From Gammaproteobacteria bacterium (GTDB lineage: Bacteria; Pseudomonadota; Gammaproteobacteria; Eutrophobiales; Eutrophobiaceae), in the NCBI GenBank assembly GCA_965215365.1, contig CBDCDS010000003.1, positions 1,664,001 to 1,728,000 of the forward strand: a stretch of 64,000 nt of DNA. Reading direction: 5' to 3'. Below the pieces are notes generated by a model that saw only the letters and a program-made list of their open reading frames with translations, was not told the origin of the DNA and did no database searches. Below are positions 7,641 through 40,313 of the stretch, piece after piece. The position numbers and the translations under genes were made by a program. Within the stretch, counting starts at the first letter, position 1, and every line of letters starts with the position of its first letter.

Positions 7641-8937
7641 TCAACATAGCCGTCTGCTGCGTCTGGCGGGTCCGTTAGTCCTGTCCAACCTGACGGTGGC
7701 CTTGCAGGGCATGGTCGATACGGCAGTAGTCGGCCACCTGGATACACCGGCGTACATCGGTGCAGTGGCGGTGGCCAATGTGATCTTCAGCTTCCTTTAC
7801 TGGGGCATGGGCTTTTTGCGTATGAGTACGGTGGGCATCGTCGCCCAGCTCATGGGCGCTGATAATCCTGAGCGTCTGCGCGCGGCGCTGTTGCACAGTT
7901 GTTTTCTCGGCGCCGTCATTGCCCTGGCCATCCTGTTATTACAGACCCCGGTAGTGCGTCTGGGGCTGAACCTGCTCGGTGGCAGCGCCGCGGTCAGGGC
8001 CAATGCGCAGGTCTATTTTTACTGGGCGGTGTGGAGCGCACCGGCGGTCTTGCTGAATATGACCTGTGTGGGGTGGCTGCTGGGCCTGCACAATGCCCGC
8101 GCCACGCTGTACATCGCCCTGCTGATTGGCGCGCTGAATATGCTGCTGGACCTGGTGTTCGTGTTTGGTCTGCACCTAGATGTGCGCGGCGTGGCGCTGG
8201 CGTCGGTCGTGGCCCAGTATTGTGGTTGCGCACTCGCAGGGTATTTTATTGTCGGTGAGTTGCGGCGGCGTCCGGGGCCGTGGAGCAAGTCGGTTATTCT
8301 CAACCGCAAGGACTTTGCCGGTTTGTTGGCGCTGAACCAGAATATTTTTATCAGGACCTTGTGCCTGATCTTCGCCTTCGCATTTTTTACCCGGCAAGGC
8401 GCCCAGCAGGGGGAACTGGTGCTGGCGGCCAACGCCGTGCTGATCAATTTCATGTTGCTGGTAGCGCTCGGTCTGGACGGGTTTGCCAATGCTGCAGAAG
8501 CCCTGGTAGGCAAGGCTATCGGCGCCGGTGACCGGACGCAATTACAAAAATCTGTGCAGGCCGCCATGCTCTGGGGTGGCGCCGTGGCGCTGCTGTATGC
8601 CCTGTTATTTGTGCTGGCCGGCAACGGGCTGGTCAACCTGATGACCAACCTGGAGCCGGTGCGGGAGACCGCCGGCCAATACCTGCCCTGGATGATGGCA
8701 GCGCCGGTTATTTCGGTCTGGTGCTTCCTGCTGGATGGGATCTTTATCGGCGCCACCCGCGGGCGCGAGCTCAGAAACGCCATGCTGTTCTCCACCCTTA
8801 TCGTTTACCTCCCTTGCTGGTATCTGTTGCAGGACTTCGGCAACCACGGCCTATGGCTGGCGCTGATGGCATTTTTCATCGCCCGCACACTGAGCCTGTT
8901 GTGGTACTACCGCAATGCTTCAAAGTGGATTAGTTGA
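7633..8937 (+). CDS. dinF: MATE family efflux transporter (DinF-like)
   Basis: LAGPLVLSN, VDTAVVGHL, GFLRMST, LDGFANAAEALVG, DGIFIGATR. Confidence 0.9.
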   Translation: MLTQHSRLLRLAGPLVLSNLTVALQGMVDTAVVGHLDTPAYIGAVAVANVIFSFLYWGMGFLRMSTVGIVAQLMGADNPERLRAALLHSCFLGAVIALAILLLQTPVVRLGLNLLGGSAAVRANAQVYFYWAVWSAPAVLLNMTCVGWLLGLHNARATLYIALLIGALNMLLDLVFVFGLHLDVRGVALASVVAQYCGCALAGYFIVGELRRRPGPWSKSVILNRKDFAGLLALNQNIFIRTLCLIFAFAFFTRQGAQQGELVLAANAVLINFMLLVALGLDGFANAAEALVGKAIGAGDRTQLQKSVQAAMLWGGAVALLYALLFVLAGNGLVNLMTNLEPVRETAGQYLPWMMAAPVISVWCFLLDGIFIGATRGRELRNAMLFSTLIVYLPCWYLLQDFGNHGLWLALMAFFIARTLSLLWYYRNASKWIS

Positions 8938-8974
8938 CATGGATGCCCCACAAGAATCAAAAAAGCCTGTCCGG

Positions 8975-9137
8975 TGCAGCAGATTGGTCGAGGGCGACCT
9001 GCTATCGCTGGTTGAAGCGGTATCGTGAATGTGGGCTGAGGGGTCTGGGGACTGCCTCTCGTGCGCCGCGACGGCGGCGTGTGCGGCAGCGGGCACGCCA
9101 GCACGAGCAGCAGCAGGTCTTGCACCTGCGCCAATGC
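8975..9137 (+). pseudogene. IS481-family transposase HTH fragment
   Basis: SRATCYRWLKRYRECGLRGLG..SRAPRRRRV matches the ORF at 39436-40227. Confidence 0.85.
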
Positions 9138-9180
9138 TCTGCTAGACTGACCGCTCTTGTGTAACCTGTCAAGGAGCGCT

Positions 9181-10458
9181 ATGACCACATCGTTCCCGCA
9201 TGATTTCAGTGACGAACGCTACACCGAGGCACTGTTGGGCCTGTTCAAGCCCGGCACCGGCGTGGCCCCGCCCAAGCTCGCCGGGCGCGGTGATGAGACG
9301 AAGGTCTTTGAGCGCCAGCTGTTGATCGACTTGCGCAAGGGATGCGGCCCGGCAGGGGACTTGGTGCTCTTCGGGCCGCGCGGTAACGGCAAGACGGTGT
9401 TGCTCACTGATCTCAGTCGCCGCGCCGCTGAGCGTCAGATTGACGTGGTCACGCTGACTCCTGATGAGATCGATTCCCCGCTGCAGCTAATCAGAAACTT
9501 ATTGCAGCGTCCGCCGTCGACACTGGCGTCGGGCGGGCTCTGGCTCGGGCGCTTGTTGAGGCGGCGCGCACCGCGCACACAGAAGGCCTCGGCGGCGAGC
9601 TTACGCGTGGGAGCGGGCGATCTCAGCGCGGAGCTCAGTGCTGAGCTCAGCGTTGTCTCAGACGATGAGCTCAGGGTGTATGGTGAGGCCAAGCTGACTG
9701 CGCGTTGTCGCGCACAACCGCTGTTGGTCACCGTGGACGAAGCCCATACGCTCGATATCGAGACCGGGCGCCGGCTGCTGAACCTCAGCCAGCAGCTGCG
9801 CACGGCCGATGTCCCGTTCGTCCTCATCTTGGCCGGCACGCCTAATCTTGAAGCGCATCTGGGTAAGATGAGCGCCACCTTCTGGGATCGCTCTGAGATC
9901 CTGCCGATCGGCCGGCTGAGCGCTAAGGCCACGGCCGAGGCTTTAACGACTCCGCTGGCCCAATGGTCGGTGGCTTTCGAGCCGGACGCCTTGGCGGCGG
10001 TGGTGGATGACTCACAGTGTTATCCGTATTTCATTCAGCTTTGGGGGCGGGCGTTGTGTGGCGCCTTGGTCGAGCAAGGGGGGGGGCACACAGTGACCTT
10101 GGGTCTCGTCAAGCAGGCTGCCCCACAGGTCGCGGCACGGCGCCTGCGTTATTATGGGAGGCGATATCTGGAGCTCGAAGATCGTGGCTTGCTCGAGACC
10201 GCGTCGCTCGTCGCCGGCTGTTTCGAGAAGTCCGAGCAGGTGGCCAGGGCGACGCTCAAGGCGGCGTTGGGCGAGGGGCTCGGGTCAGACGCCGAGGCCG
10301 CCATGGCGGTGCTCGGCCAACTCGCCGACTTAGGCTACACCTGGGCGCCTGACGGCGGTCGGGAGATCGAGCCGGGTATTCCGTCGCTGATGAGTCATGT
10401 GCGCGAGGCGGTCGCTGAGGAGGCGATGGATTTTCCAGAACCGCCACCGCGGCCTTAA
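9181..10458 (+). CDS. P-loop AAA ATPase (AAA_16/ATPase_2-like) with probable C-terminal winged helix
   Basis: PGTGVAPPKLAGR, Walker A GPRGNGKT, Walker B LVTVDEAH, ILAGTP, CYPYFIQLWG; RBS AAGGAG. Confidence 0.85.
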   Translation: MTTSFPHDFSDERYTEALLGLFKPGTGVAPPKLAGRGDETKVFERQLLIDLRKGCGPAGDLVLFGPRGNGKTVLLTDLSRRAAERQIDVVTLTPDEIDSPLQLIRNLLQRPPSTLASGGLWLGRLLRRRAPRTQKASAASLRVGAGDLSAELSAELSVVSDDELRVYGEAKLTARCRAQPLLVTVDEAHTLDIETGRRLLNLSQQLRTADVPFVLILAGTPNLEAHLGKMSATFWDRSEILPIGRLSAKATAEALTTPLAQWSVAFEPDALAAVVDDSQCYPYFIQLWGRALCGALVEQGGGHTVTLGLVKQAAPQVAARRLRYYGRRYLELEDRGLLETASLVAGCFEKSEQVARATLKAALGEGLGSDAEAAMAVLGQLADLGYTWAPDGGREIEPGIPSLMSHVREAVAEEAMDFPEPPPRP

Positions 10459-10592
10459 CCCGCAGATATCACCAAGTCGCTTGTTGCCTTGTGCAACATG
10501 ATTGCTCTCAATAAGTTATGGTAACCTCTAAGCCTTCATGATCAACCCCTCACACAGCACAGTCTCATAGGCATTGAACCTGAACAAAAGTC

Positions 10593-10621
10593 TTGACTGT
10601 AGAGTGGAATTGTGTTAAAGT
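10593..10621 (+). promoter_or_regulatory. Sigma70 promoter TTGACT-17-TAAAGT
   Basis: -35 at 10593-10598, -10 at 10616-10621; GAGGAG RBS downstream. Confidence 0.65.
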
Positions 10622-10673
10622 TGCGATGTCGTTCAGCTTCTATACAATCACCCGTTTACTGAGGAGAACGAGA

Positions 10674-11235
10674 ATGAAAATGAAACTTACGGTTACCCCC
10701 CCCCCCCCCCCCCCCCACACGCCCTAGCCGCCTGACGGCACCGGCCACCCTGCTGGTGGCCCTGATGCTGGGACTGGCCGGCACCCTGCCGATGACAACA
10801 TATGCGCAGGTTAATCTGTGCCCGAATGGATTGCTTCAGTTGAATAACATCTATATGACCGTAACCGTGGGTCAGAACCGAGGGTCGACATACAACCCGG
10901 ACACAGCCCAGTTTACGACCGACACGACAAAACATTCGGCCACGGTTACGGTCAGAGAAGAGCAGGCGAATCTCCTTATCACCGGCCGGGGGTACACCTC
11001 TGGCCAATTCCGTTTTGGGATGCAGGGCGAAGGCGAGGCCCTTCTCCACCACGGCGTCATGTGGTCCGCCGGGCGCCTTCACAATGGTCAGTTGTCGGGG
11101 ATTGACATTCCGATCTCTTTCCATAACCTGGAGCCGGGCACAAAGTACGCTGTGGAACTTCTTGTAGAGAATACCAATCTCCACCCTGAGCGGCGCCTAC
11201 TATTCCGGAACTGTTTCCAGACGCCCGCGCCCTGA
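10674..11235 (+). CDS. Putative secreted protein with poly-C tract in the signal N-region, out of frame as assembled
   Basis: ATG 10674, C21 at 10696-10716, TAG 10725; removing one C gives MKMKLTVTPPPPPPTRPSRLTAPATLLVALMLGLAGTLPMTTYA-QVNLCPNG joined to ORF 10756-11235. Confidence 0.7.
10696..10716 (+). repeat. C21 homopolymer
   Basis: Direct count. Confidence 0.95.
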
Positions 11236-11329
11236 CCCCACGCCCTTCCTGCTGCTAGCGACTATGCTGGCACCTGCGGCGGTGACGGCGCAGATGGTTG
11301 GAGGCAGTGTCTGCCCGTCAGGCACGTTT

Positions 11330-11455
11330 GGTCACCTCTCACAAACACGAGGTGACCGTGCAGCACAAGGATGTGCTGCCAGTAACTGCAAGCACGTAAG
11401 TGCTTGAAAATGAAGGAAATGAAAAATCATACTTTTTCATTATCTCTGAGAGACA
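11330..11455. mobile_element. Partial copy of the 151-bp MITE
   Basis: ggtcacctctcacaaacacgaggtgacc, gcagcacaaggatgtgctgc, aagcacgtaagtgcttgaaaatgaaggaaatgaaaaatcatac match 57490-57640. Confidence 0.8.
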
Positions 11456-37972: not shown

Positions 37973-38221
37973 TCATAGTTCTTGCGCGCGTTCCGGCGCA
38001 AATCCGGCCAGTTCCCCGCTGTCATTATCCTGAGTCAAAATTCGCACTTTCTGCTCGGCCGCCGCCAGGGCTTGCTGGCAGCTGCGGGTCAGGCTGACGC
38101 CGCGCTCGAACTGTTGCAGGGATTCTTCTAGGGTCAGGTCGCCTTTCTCCATGGTTTCGACCAGCTGCTCCAGTTCCGCCAGCGCTTTTTCAAAATCGAT
38201 TTCAGGTTTGGTATCGGACAC
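37973..38221 (-). CDS. xseB: Exodeoxyribonuclease VII small subunit
   Basis: FEKALAELEQLVETME..LEESLQQFERG; upstream of ispA. Confidence 0.95.
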   Translation of the reverse strand: MSDTKPEIDFEKALAELEQLVETMEKGDLTLEESLQQFERGVSLTRSCQQALAAAEQKVRILTQDNDSGELAGFAPERAQEL

Positions 38222-38334
38222 AAGCCGGCCTCCGGTGAATAATGGCTTCGATTGTACCGCACATTTACCGTCCAGGTAAAAATCCGGTGTATTCCCTAAT
38301 CGACAATTAGAAATCGGTATAAATAGAAAAATCC

Positions 38335-38400
38335 TGTCCGGGTTCAGAGCAGCACCTCCCTGTGCTGCACGGGTGCCTCATGTTTGTGAGAGGCACCCGT
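38335..38400. mobile_element. Isolated 14-bp IS481 left end followed by a MITE fragment
   Basis: TGTCCGGGTTCAGA is the exact reverse complement of 40268-40281; then gcagcacctccctgtgctgcacgggtgcctc..gaggcaccc. Confidence 0.75.
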
Positions 38401-38434
38401 TAGTTTATTGGCCAGCTGTGCGGCCCGCACTCGG

Positions 38435-39068
38435 CTACTGGTTCCCTCCGAGAAGCTCACCCGCCAGACCGACCCTCGCGCAGCCCCTGCCGCCCATGAA
38501 CAGGAAGTAGGCGCTGCCAGTTTCCGTCCATTGGCGGGTGTTTACGGGCGGGCTGAAGACCGGCACCACCATCTCACCGGGGCCTTGATTGGGATTGTTG
38601 GCATTGCGGTTGGTCCAGATGCGGGCACCGGCCTTGGGGCGCACCTCGATGATGTTCTCGCCAAGCACACCGCCGGAGAAATTGATACTCCTATTCCCAT
38701 CCGGGTTGCGCCACTGGTTGTTGCCGATCGCCGCAGTCCGCCACTCCCAGTCGCTGAAAGTGGAGCCGAAATCGTTTGCTGAGGTAATGAATCCTATGTT
38801 GATGTTGAAGCTTTGCCGCGTCACGCTGGAATTGGTGGACGACAGGATCAGCTTCATGCGGCCGGGCGTGGCGTGGTCACCGCAGCCGTCCACAACTTGC
38901 GAAACCGATGCAAGCGAGACGGTGCAGATGCTGCCGGTGCAAGTAGGAGGCGTTTGCGCCTGCGCCGGTCCTGCAAGCAGCAGGAAGCAGAGCATCGCGG
39001 CGGCGGGCGCCGCGAGGGCCGTCAGTCTAGTGGGGGGGGGGGGGGGGTAAAAGTGTATCTCGTTTCAT
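38435..39068 (-). CDS. Putative secreted protein with poly-C tract in the signal N-region, out of frame as assembled
   Basis: AGGAG RBS, ATG 39068, C16 (G16 at 39032-39047), TAG 39027; C15 gives MKRDTLLPPPPPTRLTALAAPAAAMLCFLLLAGPAQA-QTPPTC joined to ORF 38435-38995. Confidence 0.72.
39032..39047 (-). repeat. C16 homopolymer (G16 on + strand)
   Basis: Direct count. Confidence 0.95.
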
Positions 39069-39111
39069 TGTCTGTCTCCTGATGGTTGAGTAAAACAACT
39101 CATCGGCACCG

Positions 39112-39140
39112 ATTATACTATAATGGTCAGGAAAAGTCAA
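39112..39140 (-). promoter_or_regulatory. Near-consensus sigma70 promoter TTGACT-17-TATAAT
   Basis: -35 at 39140-39135, -10 at 39117-39112. Confidence 0.8.
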
Positions 39141-39146
39141 AAAAAC

Positions 39147-40281
39147 TGTCCAGGTTCAATACATATGAGACTCAGAGGCAGGCTGTGTGAGTTGTTGATA
39201 ATACTCCATTGGGGTTAATAAACCCATACCGTCATGCGGCCGGTAGGTATTGTAGTATTGCTGATACTCGGCCAGTTTGCGGTTGATGGCGGCCACGGTC
39301 AGTGGACCCTCGTAGAACGGATAGAACTCATAGCGGCTGGTGGCATTGGCGCGTTCTACACAGCCGTTGTATTCGGGTTTTTTCGGGGGCAGCACGTACA
39401 GGGGGATTCCTAAGTCCTGGCAAGCCTGCTCGAACTCATCTTAAGAACTCCGAGCCGCCATCGACTTGGATAGAACGGATGGGAAACGGCGCCTCACCGA
39501 GCAGCGCCTTTAAGAAGCGCCGGGCATTGCCACTGGTGGCCCGACTGTAGGCTCGCAGCGCACTCCATTTGCTCACCGGACAGACGGCCTTGAACTCCTT
39601 CACCGTGACGCCGTCCGTGAAGCCGACACTCATGTGGTCTATCTGCATCAACTCCCCCGGCGCCTTAGCCTTCATCCCGTAGCGCCAGCGCTTGGCATGA
39701 TGGGTAAACGCCCGGCGGCGCTTAGGCTTCACCCGGCCATAGTAAAACGCCACCGGCTTGACCCGACCTAGCCGCACCCGCTTCGCCACGATGCGCCCGA
39801 CCGTACTCTCGCTCAAAGTCCAGCCCTGCTCGCGCACCCCCACCCGCCAGAGCTTACGCTTGCCCCATAACGGATAACGTTGGCGAAGGTGCAAGACCTG
39901 CTGCTCGTGCTGGCGCGTCCATTGCGGCACACGCCGCCGCCGCGGCGCACGAGAGCCACACCCCAGACCCTTCAGCCCATGTTCACGATACCGCTTCAAC
40001 CAACGGTAGTAGGTCGCCCTCGACCCACCTACTGCTGCCAGTGCCGTCGCCTCACCACACCCATCCTCGCGTAACGTCGCAACTAATTCCAACTGCTGCA
40101 AACGACCGAGCGCGTCAGCATCGGTAGTATCATCGACGCGCCAACTGCGATATGATTTCACCCGCTTACCTTTTGATCTGCATCGGGTAGTCCTCCTGTG
40201 TAAGTTAATCGAAATCACTTTACACACTTAACTACCCGATTTCTTTATCTAAAGAGTCTCACTTGTTTCTGAACCCGGACA
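39147..40281 (-). mobile_element. IS481-family insertion sequence (1135 bp)
   Basis: TGT..ACA imperfect IRs TGTCCAGGTTCAATACATATGAGACTC / TGTCCGGGTTCAGAAACAAGTGAGACTC; flanks do not form a duplication. Confidence 0.88.
39156..40227 (-). pseudogene. IS481-family DDE transposase with +1 frameshift near 39440
   Basis: HTH, PGELMQID, IQVDGGSEF, then (shifted) LPPKKPEYNGCVER..YNTYRPH. Confidence 0.88.
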
Positions 40282-40285
40282 GAAG

Positions 40286-40313
40286 TTGACACCGGTGCGG
40301 GAATGAGTAGAAT
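40286..40313 (+). promoter_or_regulatory. Sigma70 promoter TTGACA-16-TAGAAT of the rubrerythrin operon
   Basis: 4 bp outside the IS left end. Confidence 0.6.

What the first reader, a model, noticed from the sequence alone, without database searches (positions are those of the whole stretch)
38435..39140. Second poly-C gene with the same leader architecture but an unrelated mature domain
Seen: TTGACT-17-TATAAT, AGGAG, MKRDTLL, C16, then TAG. C15 gives PPPPP-TRLTA..MLCFLLLAGPAQA-Q. Both poly-C genes share TTA-C(n)-AC, a stop within a few codons in the off frame, (T/S)RLTA after the tract, an A|Q cleavage site with an early Cys, a TTGACT promoter and an IS481 right end upstream. Inference: a reusable promoter + RBS + poly-C signal leader fused to interchangeable secreted domains, a genome-wide ON/OFF repertoire that may matter for host or phage interaction.
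Basis: partly seen in the sequence, partly recalled or inferred. Interest (0 to 1): 0.75.

Follow-up and report, generated by a model that had tools for sequence, protein, structure and literature searches.

The report
Poly-C on/off switch, secreted-protein gene
A run of 16 cytosines just after the start codon keeps this small secreted-protein gene out of frame, and it is one of about fifteen such slippage-switched genes in the genome, built from reusable start modules and shared between unrelated, apparently sponge-associated bacteria.

Summary
On the minus strand lie TTGACT-17-TATAAT, AGGAG, ATG (39068), seven codons, C16 (39032-39047), then TAG in the current frame. C15 or C18 would join the start to a 198-codon frame encoding a signal peptide and a ~17-kDa all-beta protein with no Pfam family. 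The genome holds 25 C/G runs of 9 or more. Fifteen sit 4-11 codons after an ATG, ahead of an export-signal-like segment. All 13 with n>=10 are out of frame.

Three 100%-identical copies of a 3.6-kb IS66-like element differ only in tract length (14, 19, 20). The gene-2 family was found in 0 of 30 same-genus or same-class genomes, but in 18 MAGs labelled Alpha-, Gammaproteobacteria and Acidobacteriota, at up to 87% identity where IspA is 42-51%. Of 72 loci there, 55 carry C7-C29 tracts; 16 of 53 scored are in frame. dN/dS is 0.10-0.50.

Leaders are genome-specific, whereas mature domains cluster across genomes. The IS481-like end upstream is not part of the module: this IS generally lands 5-6 nt upstream of -35 boxes.

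Best reading: a slipped-strand contingency gene, a new variant of a known kind. Tract heterogeneity in reads could not be tested. This scan noted similar poly-C cassettes on other DNA.

The parts
39112..39140 (-). sigma70-type promoter TTGACT-17-TATAAT
   Evidence: 11 of 12 consensus matches; sequence
39076..39080 (-). Shine-Dalgarno AGGAG, 7 nt before the ATG
   Evidence: read directly
39048..39068 (-). start codon plus six codons (MKRDTLL), the pre-tract leader
39032..39047 (-). poly-C tract, C16 (the switch); read as prolines in any frame
39022..39029 (-). stops of the two OFF frames (TAG 39029-27, TGA 39024-22) inside the conserved post-tract motif CTAGACTGA
   Evidence: enrichment of such stops
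38957..39031 (-). post-tract part of the signal peptide (TRLTALAAPAAAMLCFLLLAGPAQA), predicted cleavage after AQA
   Evidence: translation; signal peptide judged by inspection, no predictor available
38435..38956 (-). mature domain (173 aa plus stop): Cys-containing all-beta sandwich, no named family
38349..38400 (-). two strong hairpins 3' of the gene; a copy of a genome-wide repeat and a possible terminator
   Evidence: z -4.56; 34 copies of the core
39147..40281 (-). IS481-like insertion sequence, right end 6 nt upstream of the -35; neighbour, not part of the module
10593..11235 (+). the other poly-C gene of the window: TTGACT 10593-98, ATG 10674, C21 10696-10716, frame 10717-11235

Best explanation
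The gene at 38435-39068 (minus strand) is a slipped-strand, phase-variable (contingency) gene for a small exported beta-sandwich protein. A strong promoter and ribosome-binding site drive a start codon and seven codons, followed by a C16 run that lies in the n-region of a Sec-type signal peptide. Replication slippage changes the run by one or more C's. At n = 15 or 18 the run is read as 5 or 6 prolines and the full pre-protein is made and exported. At other lengths translation ends after 2-4 more codons, because both alternative frames carry a stop (TAG, TGA) in the conserved post-tract motif. The assembly shows the OFF state.

The gene is one of about 15 such loci in this genome. Their leaders (promoter, RBS, first codons, tract) are reused on unrelated cargo. 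The cargo family moves horizontally among co-occurring, apparently sponge-associated bacteria.

Shown here: the anatomy, the repertoire, tract-length differences between otherwise identical copies, in-frame poly-Pro forms in relatives, purifying selection, and phylogenetic discordance. Inferred: switching within a population, export, and the biological role. My guess at the role is variable surface or secreted binding proteins facing host or phage pressure.
For: Anatomy.

Repertoire: 25 C/G runs of 9 or more while A/T runs stop at 9. 15 of the 25 are leader-type.

Hypermutability: three copies of a 3.6-kb IS66-like element are identical over 2394+1195 nt but carry C19, C14 and C20. 28 of 33 leader-sharing paralogue pairs in other genomes differ in tract length.

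In-frame forms exist: 17 of 26 fetched homologues have a run of 3 or more prolines before the hydrophobic core. 16 of 53 scored loci are in frame, close to one third.

Not decaying: dN/dS is 0.10-0.50 in 13 pairs.

Off-frame stops: both OFF frames stop within 5 codons in 37 of 67 loci, against 4.2% of 1139 control positions.

Local instability rather than a mutator: MutS and MutL are intact.

Same design in kin: C12+ runs occur in 20 of 23 same-genus genomes, and 7 of 13 sampled tracts in congener G006 have the ATG-leader-Cn-signal-peptide layout.

Horizontal spread: 0 of 30 same-genus or same-class genomes have the family. 72 loci lie in 18 MAGs. IspA is 42-51% identical where the cargo is 79-87%. 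Genome labels are intermixed on the tree: 44 changes, minimum 13, shuffled mean 49.4.

Fold: pLDDT 90, all-beta.
Against: No read-level data exist for this tract. All four runs laid were contigs, and no listed piece spans it.

Homopolymer lengths in assemblies are error-prone, so the OFF call (C16 rather than C15) could be a one-base consensus error.

All 13 loci with n>=10 in this genome are OFF, which is fewer ON than the one third expected by chance ((2/3)^13 = 0.005). This could mean selection for OFF, systematic miscalling, or expression by another route.

No RNA holder was listed, so expression is unknown.

The signal peptide is judged by eye.

The fold matches are generic (best Z 8.0) and give no function.
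Confidence: 0.8

Rival explanations
1. RNA-level or ribosome-level slippage is the main route. On C13-C29 runs RNA polymerase, or the ribosome on CCC-C proline codons, slips often enough that every cell makes some in-frame product whatever the DNA length. The tract would then be a dimmer, possibly dependent on the elongation factor EF-P, rather than a heritable switch.
For: All 13 long-tract loci in this genome are out of frame, yet the family is under purifying selection. The tracts are far longer than needed for DNA slippage (up to C29). Polymerase slippage on long homopolymers and +1 shifts at CCC-C are established phenomena (recalled, not from a call).
Against: The fast stops in both OFF frames and the ~1/3 in-frame share across 53 loci fit a DNA-encoded stochastic switch. 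Tract lengths demonstrably change at the DNA level. No RNA data were available.
Confidence: 0.12
2. The gene is a decaying pseudogene. The frameshift is an inactivating mutation in a dispensable horizontally acquired gene, and the poly-C run is merely a mutational hotspot.
For: The gene is OFF in the assembly, as are its 12 long-tract companions. Fragments of the family are scattered in the genome (4 partial matches). An IS sits beside it.
Against: dN/dS is 0.10-0.50. The reading frame is intact for 198 codons after the tract. The promoter, RBS and off-frame stops are conserved. In-frame poly-Pro relatives exist.
Confidence: 0.05
3. The tract length is an assembly miscall. The true sequence is C15, and the gene is a constitutively expressed secreted protein with a fixed poly-proline stretch.
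For: Long homopolymers are hard to call. Contigs of four runs break at the tract.
Against: Differences of 5-6 bases between identical repeats and of up to 10 between paralogues with one leader exceed ordinary calling error. Lengths range over C7-C29.
Confidence: 0.03

Closest known systems
Neisseria pilC1/pilC2 (poly-G/C tract within the reading frame; PMC5953494, passages read, citing Jonsson et al. 1991). That the tract lies in the signal-peptide-coding part is recalled, not seen.
   Same: A G/C homopolymer of 9-20 near the 5' end of a gene for an exported protein; translational ON/OFF by slipped-strand mispairing; more than one copy per genome.
   Different: There is no sequence or fold relation to PilC (no Pfam hit). 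Here about 15 loci carry unrelated cargo behind shared leaders, tracts reach C24 (C29 in relatives), dual off-frame stops are conserved, and the hosts are uncultured environmental or host-associated bacteria of several classes rather than a pathogen.
Neisseria opa family (CTCTT repeats, 'Genic', listed in the table read). The signal-peptide location is recalled.
   Same: A multigene family of exported proteins, each with its own repeat switch near the 5' end, giving combinatorial expression.
   Different: A pentamer repeat rather than a homopolymer; one protein family rather than several; no evidence there of a leader shared across unrelated proteins.
Campylobacter / Helicobacter poly-G 'phasomes' (PMC8355987, PMC2823697: search listing and abstract starts only)
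   Same: Tens of G/C homopolymer contingency loci per small genome, many in surface-structure genes.
   Different: In those organisms the tracts lie at varied positions within enzymes and surface-structure genes (recalled, not from a call). Here they sit at a fixed position, 4-11 codons after the ATG and before the signal-peptide core, and are longer.
Ig-like beta-sandwich modules of adhesins (RTX-like adhesin domain 9cse, InvE 5n40, invasin 1cwv), Calx-beta and cohesins
   Same: The predicted fold of the mature domain aligns with Z 6.9-8.0 over 93-122 residues.
   Different: Identity is 5-17%. Z is in the range that the tool itself calls common for unrelated sandwiches. No Pfam model is matched. 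The protein is a single free-standing domain with no anchor.

Membership tests
Simple-sequence-repeat contingency (phase-variable) locus | A hypermutable repeat inside the reading frame or promoter | tested here: met
   C16 at 39032-39047, seven codons after the ATG
Simple-sequence-repeat contingency (phase-variable) locus | A change of repeat number switches the frame between a full product and early termination | tested here: met
   Frame arithmetic (ON at n = 15 or 18); TAG and TGA in the OFF frames; in-frame poly-Pro relatives
Simple-sequence-repeat contingency (phase-variable) locus | Repeat number differs between otherwise identical or clonal sequences | tested here: inconclusive
   Met for sister loci: three identical 3.6-kb copies with C14, C19 and C20, and 28 of 33 leader-sharing pairs differ. 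Not shown for this locus itself, because only contigs were available and they break at the tract.
Simple-sequence-repeat contingency (phase-variable) locus | Reversible, high-frequency switching in a population, with a phenotype | not testable with these tools
   Needs raw reads, a reporter assay or a culture
Sec (SPase I) signal peptide | Basic n-region, hydrophobic core, A-x-A cleavage motif | not testable with these tools
   Seen by inspection: K, R and R in the n-region, LTALAAPAAAMLCFLLLAG, then AQA|Q. No predictor was available. There is no lipobox.
Ig-like adhesin / Calx-beta / cohesin beta-sandwich domains | Match to a family profile or a clear structural match | tested here: inconclusive
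   Pfam gave 0 families. The best VIA match has Z 8.0, rmsd 3.5 over 117 residues. Foldseek TM is at most 0.37.
IS481 family (the neighbouring element) | Transposase with an IS481-type N-terminal HTH/leucine zipper and an rve integrase core; short target duplications | tested here: inconclusive
   HTH_32 scores 52 bits and rve_3 49 bits, both over their cut-offs. LZ_Tnp_IS481 scores 20.9 bits, below its 22.2 cut-off. Duplications of 5-6 bp were seen in two copies by eye, but none at this copy.
Integron gene cassette | A promoterless ORF followed by an attC site, in an array next to intI | tested here: not met
   The gene has its own 11-of-12 promoter. It is a single gene between xseB and an IS. 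The 3' hairpins are a dispersed repeat. intI was not searched for.

The most novel reading that the evidence does not exclude
The poly-C tract may be the joint of a community-wide modular system as well as a switch. Each genome would keep its own resident expression leader (promoter, RBS, first codons, tract). Horizontally arriving secreted beta-sandwich cargo genes, exchanged among bacteria of different classes and even phyla living in the same animal host, would become attached behind it by recombination at or just after the homopolymer. That would give every symbiont a private, stochastically expressed wardrobe of shared surface or secreted proteins, for instance to escape host phagocytosis or phages.
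Probability: 0.35. Interest if true: 0.85.

Novelty: new variant of a known kind. Interest (0 to 1): 0.7.

Why it matters
Contingency loci are textbook biology for a few pathogens. Here the same logic appears as a standardised part: a fixed position in the signal peptide, a poly-proline read-out and built-in stops in both wrong frames. It is reused on unrelated exported proteins, carried on mobile DNA, and shared among uncultured bacteria labelled as Alpha- and Gammaproteobacteria and Acidobacteriota.

If confirmed, stochastic surface variation would be a general strategy of animal-associated symbionts and not only of pathogens. The exchangeable proteins would become prime candidates for host or phage interaction factors.

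There is also a practical point. Gene callers annotate these genes as N-terminally truncated 186-aa proteins without the leader. In one search the window's own cluster and three of the closest clusters are exactly 186 aa long.

Tried and rejected
Read-level heterogeneity. One run search listed 12 holders in 6 studies, all kept as contigs. Four runs were laid. No listed piece spans the tract, and contigs fragment across the gene because the family is highly multi-copy there: summed word depth in the gene-body bins ranges from about 60 to 70,000, against 19-346 for the unique flank. This gives no information on tract length. No RNA holder was listed.

First structure job with 4 sequences: pLDDT 55, unusable.

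Foldseek against the PDB gave only weak hits, TM at most 0.37.

Protein Atlas gave no usable hit.

Viral contigs: 58 pattern matches, none a relative.

Rfam: no match in 38200-39300.

Terminator scan: none found, because the hairpins lack a T-run.

IS as part of the cassette: rejected.

The 3' hairpins as a cassette end: rejected, since they are a genome-wide repeat.

An upstream motif GCGGGATTTGGG shared by two loci was tested as a possible cassette end. It has only 4 genome copies, 2 of them at poly-C loci, which is not conclusive. It is absent beyond the IS at gene 2.

Exact breakpoint at the tract: ungapped windows show within-genome similarity on both sides of the tract, so the joint is not always at the tract itself.

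Literature. Searches found no paper on homopolymer phase variation in sponge or other marine symbionts. One search found nothing on promoter-directed IS481-family insertion. One search found no papers. Jonsson 1991 is not held.

Full report
OBSERVATION

The feature lies on the minus strand. A sigma70-type promoter, TTGACT-17-TATAAT, occupies 39140-39112 and matches 11 of 12 consensus positions. AGGAG lies at 39080-39076 and ATG at 39068-39066. The codons for MKRDTLL follow, then a run of 16 C at 39032-39047.

In the frame of the ATG the run gives five prolines, then CAC and TAG (39029-27). The third frame ends at TGA (39024-22). The remaining frame is open for 198 codons from 39031 to 38435. 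Joining it to the ATG needs n = 15 or 18.

The post-tract frame reads TRLTALAAPAAAMLCFLLLAGPAQA, then QTPPTC. By inspection this is a basic n-region, a hydrophobic core and an A-x-A site. No signal-peptide predictor was available.

C runs of 10 or more occur at two places in the window, giving 19 overlapping matches against 0.44 expected. The second is the other poly-C gene (ATG 10674, C21 10696-10716).

GENOME-WIDE REPERTOIRE

The whole genome is 2.73 Mb in 3 contigs with GC 0.579. It has 25 C/G runs of 9 or more, up to 24, while A/T runs never exceed 9.

- Fifteen of the 25 runs, and 12 of the 15 runs of 12 or more, lie 4-11 codons after an ATG.
- Each of these is followed by a 160-263-codon frame that starts with a hydrophobic, signal-peptide-like segment.
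- All 13 such loci with n>=10 are out of frame.
- The C9 locus at C3:310488 is in frame.
- By my own arithmetic, the C9 locus at C3:2527301 is also in frame from its RBS-proximal ATG.
- None of the 11 post-tract proteins scanned reaches a Pfam cut-off.

EVIDENCE THAT THE TRACTS ARE UNSTABLE AND THE GENES ALIVE

One of the genes is a passenger of a 3.6-kb element. The element has terminal inverted repeats and an IS66-family transposase (146 bits). Its three copies are identical over 2394 nt upstream and 1195 nt downstream of the tract, but carry C19, C14 and C20.

MutS and MutL are present as open frames of 863 and 670 aa, so the instability is local.

In 13 pairwise comparisons of the gene-2 family, dN/dS is 0.10-0.50. 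This does not fit decay.

Both OFF frames hit a stop within 5 codons after the tract in 37 of 67 loci, against 4.2% of 1139 control positions inside the same genes. The conserved post-tract words (CTAGACTGA here, CTAAATTAA elsewhere) encode (K/R)LT in the ON frame and a stop in each OFF frame.

THE PROTEIN

Gene 2 has three more full-length relatives in this genome (75, 30 and 30% identity) and four fragments. A word-based search found 108 clusters, none named and none with Pfam domains. A full HMM search of 1.84 billion representatives found only 41. The weak tail of those hits are Ig-like repeat surface proteins (Big_7, HYR, fn3).

With a 90-sequence alignment, AlphaFold gives pLDDT 90 and pTM 0.84 for an all-beta domain. 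Structural matches are generic sandwiches: RTX-like adhesin domain Z 8.0, InvE 7.5, invasin, Calx-beta and cohesins 6.9-7.0. Foldseek TM is at most 0.37. I read this as a single Ig-like binding-type module. Its function is unknown.

SPREAD

The family was not found in 18 genomes of the same genus or in 12 more genomes of the class. It was found at 72 loci in 18 MAGs.

The record titles of these MAGs name Paracoccaceae, Aestuariivita, Rhodospirillales, Alphaproteobacteria, Pseudomonadales, Pseudohongiella, Arenicellales, Ca. Poriferihabitans/-aceae, Ca. Azotimanducus, Ca. Azophilus, Gammaproteobacteria and Bryobacterales (lineages). The name Poriferihabitaceae occurs in a sponge genome note (listing only). 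I did not test habitat.

Identity to gene 2 reaches 87%. IspA of the same five genomes is 42-51% identical. dS is only 0.14-0.61.

A quick maximum-likelihood tree was built from 68 rows: 66 of the 72 loci (those with a frame of 140 aa or more) plus two G000 genes. Origin labels are intermixed on it, with 44 changes against a minimum of 13 and a shuffled mean of 49.4. Gene 2 groups with two 'Paracoccaceae' genes (97*), and its paralogue with a Ca. Azotimanducus gene. Groups there are title labels, so several MAGs share a label. This pattern fits repeated horizontal transfer.

No relative was found on viral contigs.

THE SAME SWITCH ELSEWHERE

Of the 72 loci, 55 have a C7-C29 run at the equivalent place. 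Of the 53 that could be scored, 16 are in frame and 37 are not, close to the one third expected for a freely drifting switch. Of 26 homologues fetched, 17 begin with a short peptide, 3-8 prolines and then (A/T)(R/K)LT.

C12+ runs occur in 20 of 23 genomes of the window's own genus. In one complete congener, 7 of 13 sampled tracts have the ATG-leader-Cn-signal-peptide layout with other cargo.

MODULARITY

In this genome two leader families exist.

- L-B serves gene 1 and C3:621466, whose mature parts share only 33% identity over 52 aa.
- L-A serves gene 2, its paralogue, a third family (C3:1974726) and C3:2482531.
- The mature part of C3:2482531 is 63% identical to gene 1.
- Gene 1 and gene 2 are unrelated.

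In the other genomes the 45 nt before the tract are shared (85% or more) by 33 of 85 within-genome pairs, but by only 1 of 1400 between-genome pairs. Conversely, 129 between-genome pairs have mature domains 85% or more identical, and only one of these pairs shares the leader.

Leaders are therefore resident and cargo is exchanged. The joint is at the tract in some cases (C3:142548, C3:2482531) and inside the signal peptide in others (gene 1 versus C3:621466).

THE IS AND THE HAIRPINS

The neighbouring element (39147-40281) has HTH_32 and rve_3 domains and a sub-threshold IS481 zipper. It has 26 full-length copies.

Its right end lies next to a promoter-like site, scoring 9 or more of 12, in 15 of 34 copies. 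The same holds for 1 of 41 left ends and 0.8% of 5000 random sites. The -35 box starts 5-6 nt from the IS end in 20 of the 23 flanks that score 8 or more.

This general habit explains why 5 of the 15 poly-C loci, which have near-consensus promoters, carry this IS end upstream. Three loci with the same promoters lack it. The IS is therefore a neighbour, not a component.

The two 3' hairpins (z -4.56) belong to a repeat with 34 core copies.

LIMITS

No raw reads were available. Contigs of four runs break in and around the tract, so population heterogeneity at this locus is not shown, and the C16 call may be off by a base. Expression, export and function are inferred.

COMPARISON AND NOVELTY

The mechanism is that of classical contingency loci. 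The closest are Neisseria pilC (G 9-20, genic; passages in PMC5953494) and opa.

The differences here are a fixed leader position, the poly-proline read-out, the built-in double stops, the reuse of one leader on unrelated cargo, the tract lengths, carriage on an IS66-like element, and the spread across classes of uncultured bacteria.

Three literature searches found nothing on this in marine or sponge symbionts. This scan has noted the same kind of poly-C cassette on other DNA (e1-3984292 and others). Those notes agree with mine but are not independent evidence.

Verdict: a real phase-variable gene of a new variant of a known kind. Confidence 0.8, interest 0.7.

Noticed in passing
window 39147-40281 and 26 full copies genome-wide (e.g. 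C3:1936441, 2122154, 2450958): The IS481-like element inserts in one orientation with its right end 5-6 nt upstream of sigma70-type -35 boxes. 15 of 34 right flanks score 9 or more of 12 as promoters, against 1 of 41 left flanks and 0.8% of random sites. The IS end itself contains TTGAAC, so it may target sequences like its own end. A search found no description of this.
   Followed up: partly
G000 C3:879837-883439, C3:~1921378-1924986, C1:~65622-69233: A 3.6-kb IS66-family element with inverted ends GTAACTACTCGCCCCC carries a 230-aa ORF with a DPPY motif (no Pfam hit), the transposase, and a poly-C secreted-protein gene as passenger. The three copies are identical except for the tract (C14, C20, C19).
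   Followed up: partly
window 38349-38400 and 11320-11440; 34 sites genome-wide: The double hairpin after both poly-C genes is a dispersed multi-hairpin repeat (core CTCACAAACAYGAGG). It is probably the hairpin-rich MITE family already noted for this genome (e1-777764).
   Followed up: partly
G000 C3:142320-143250 (L002): This is a chimeric locus. The gene-2 leader runs from the RBS to C24. It lacks its promoter (the hairpin repeat sits there instead) and is fused at the tract to a different downstream sequence (TGCTAGAGTTCACCCCGCGG...). In three other MAG loci (L022, L037, L072) that sequence follows a C10-C15 run in what looks like a promoter region. This suggests recombination at tracts.
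   Followed up: no
G000, all 13 leader loci with n>=10: Every long-tract locus is out of frame in this assembly, while both C9 loci are in frame. Other genomes show about one third in frame. No explanation was tested.
   Followed up: no
L089, L090, L092 (congener G006): C13-C24 runs sit in a shared non-coding context (ctgcttgcattta-Cn-gaaacaatatac), about 60 nt or more before a signal-peptide ORF. This may be a transcriptional or 5'-UTR type of switch.
   Followed up: no
window 39156-40227 and 40282-40300: This IS copy has its transposase frame split (263 aa plus 79 aa), and its two flanks show no matching target duplication. It may be the product of recombination between IS copies.
   Followed up: no
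window 8934-10586: Upstream of gene 1 lies a 433-aa AAA_22/AAA_16 ATPase gene between an IS transposase fragment and an IS right-end remnant. A paralogue at C3:586.4 kb also follows an IS right-end fragment.
   Followed up: no
window 38457-39041 in four metagenome runs: Summed contig depth over the gene-2 body reaches 70,000, against 19-346 on the unique flank. The family is therefore very abundant and diverse in those communities.
   Followed up: partly
G000 C3:962145 (G12), 967144 (C20), 1729989 (C14): Three long tracts are not of the leader type. Their contexts were not examined.
   Followed up: no
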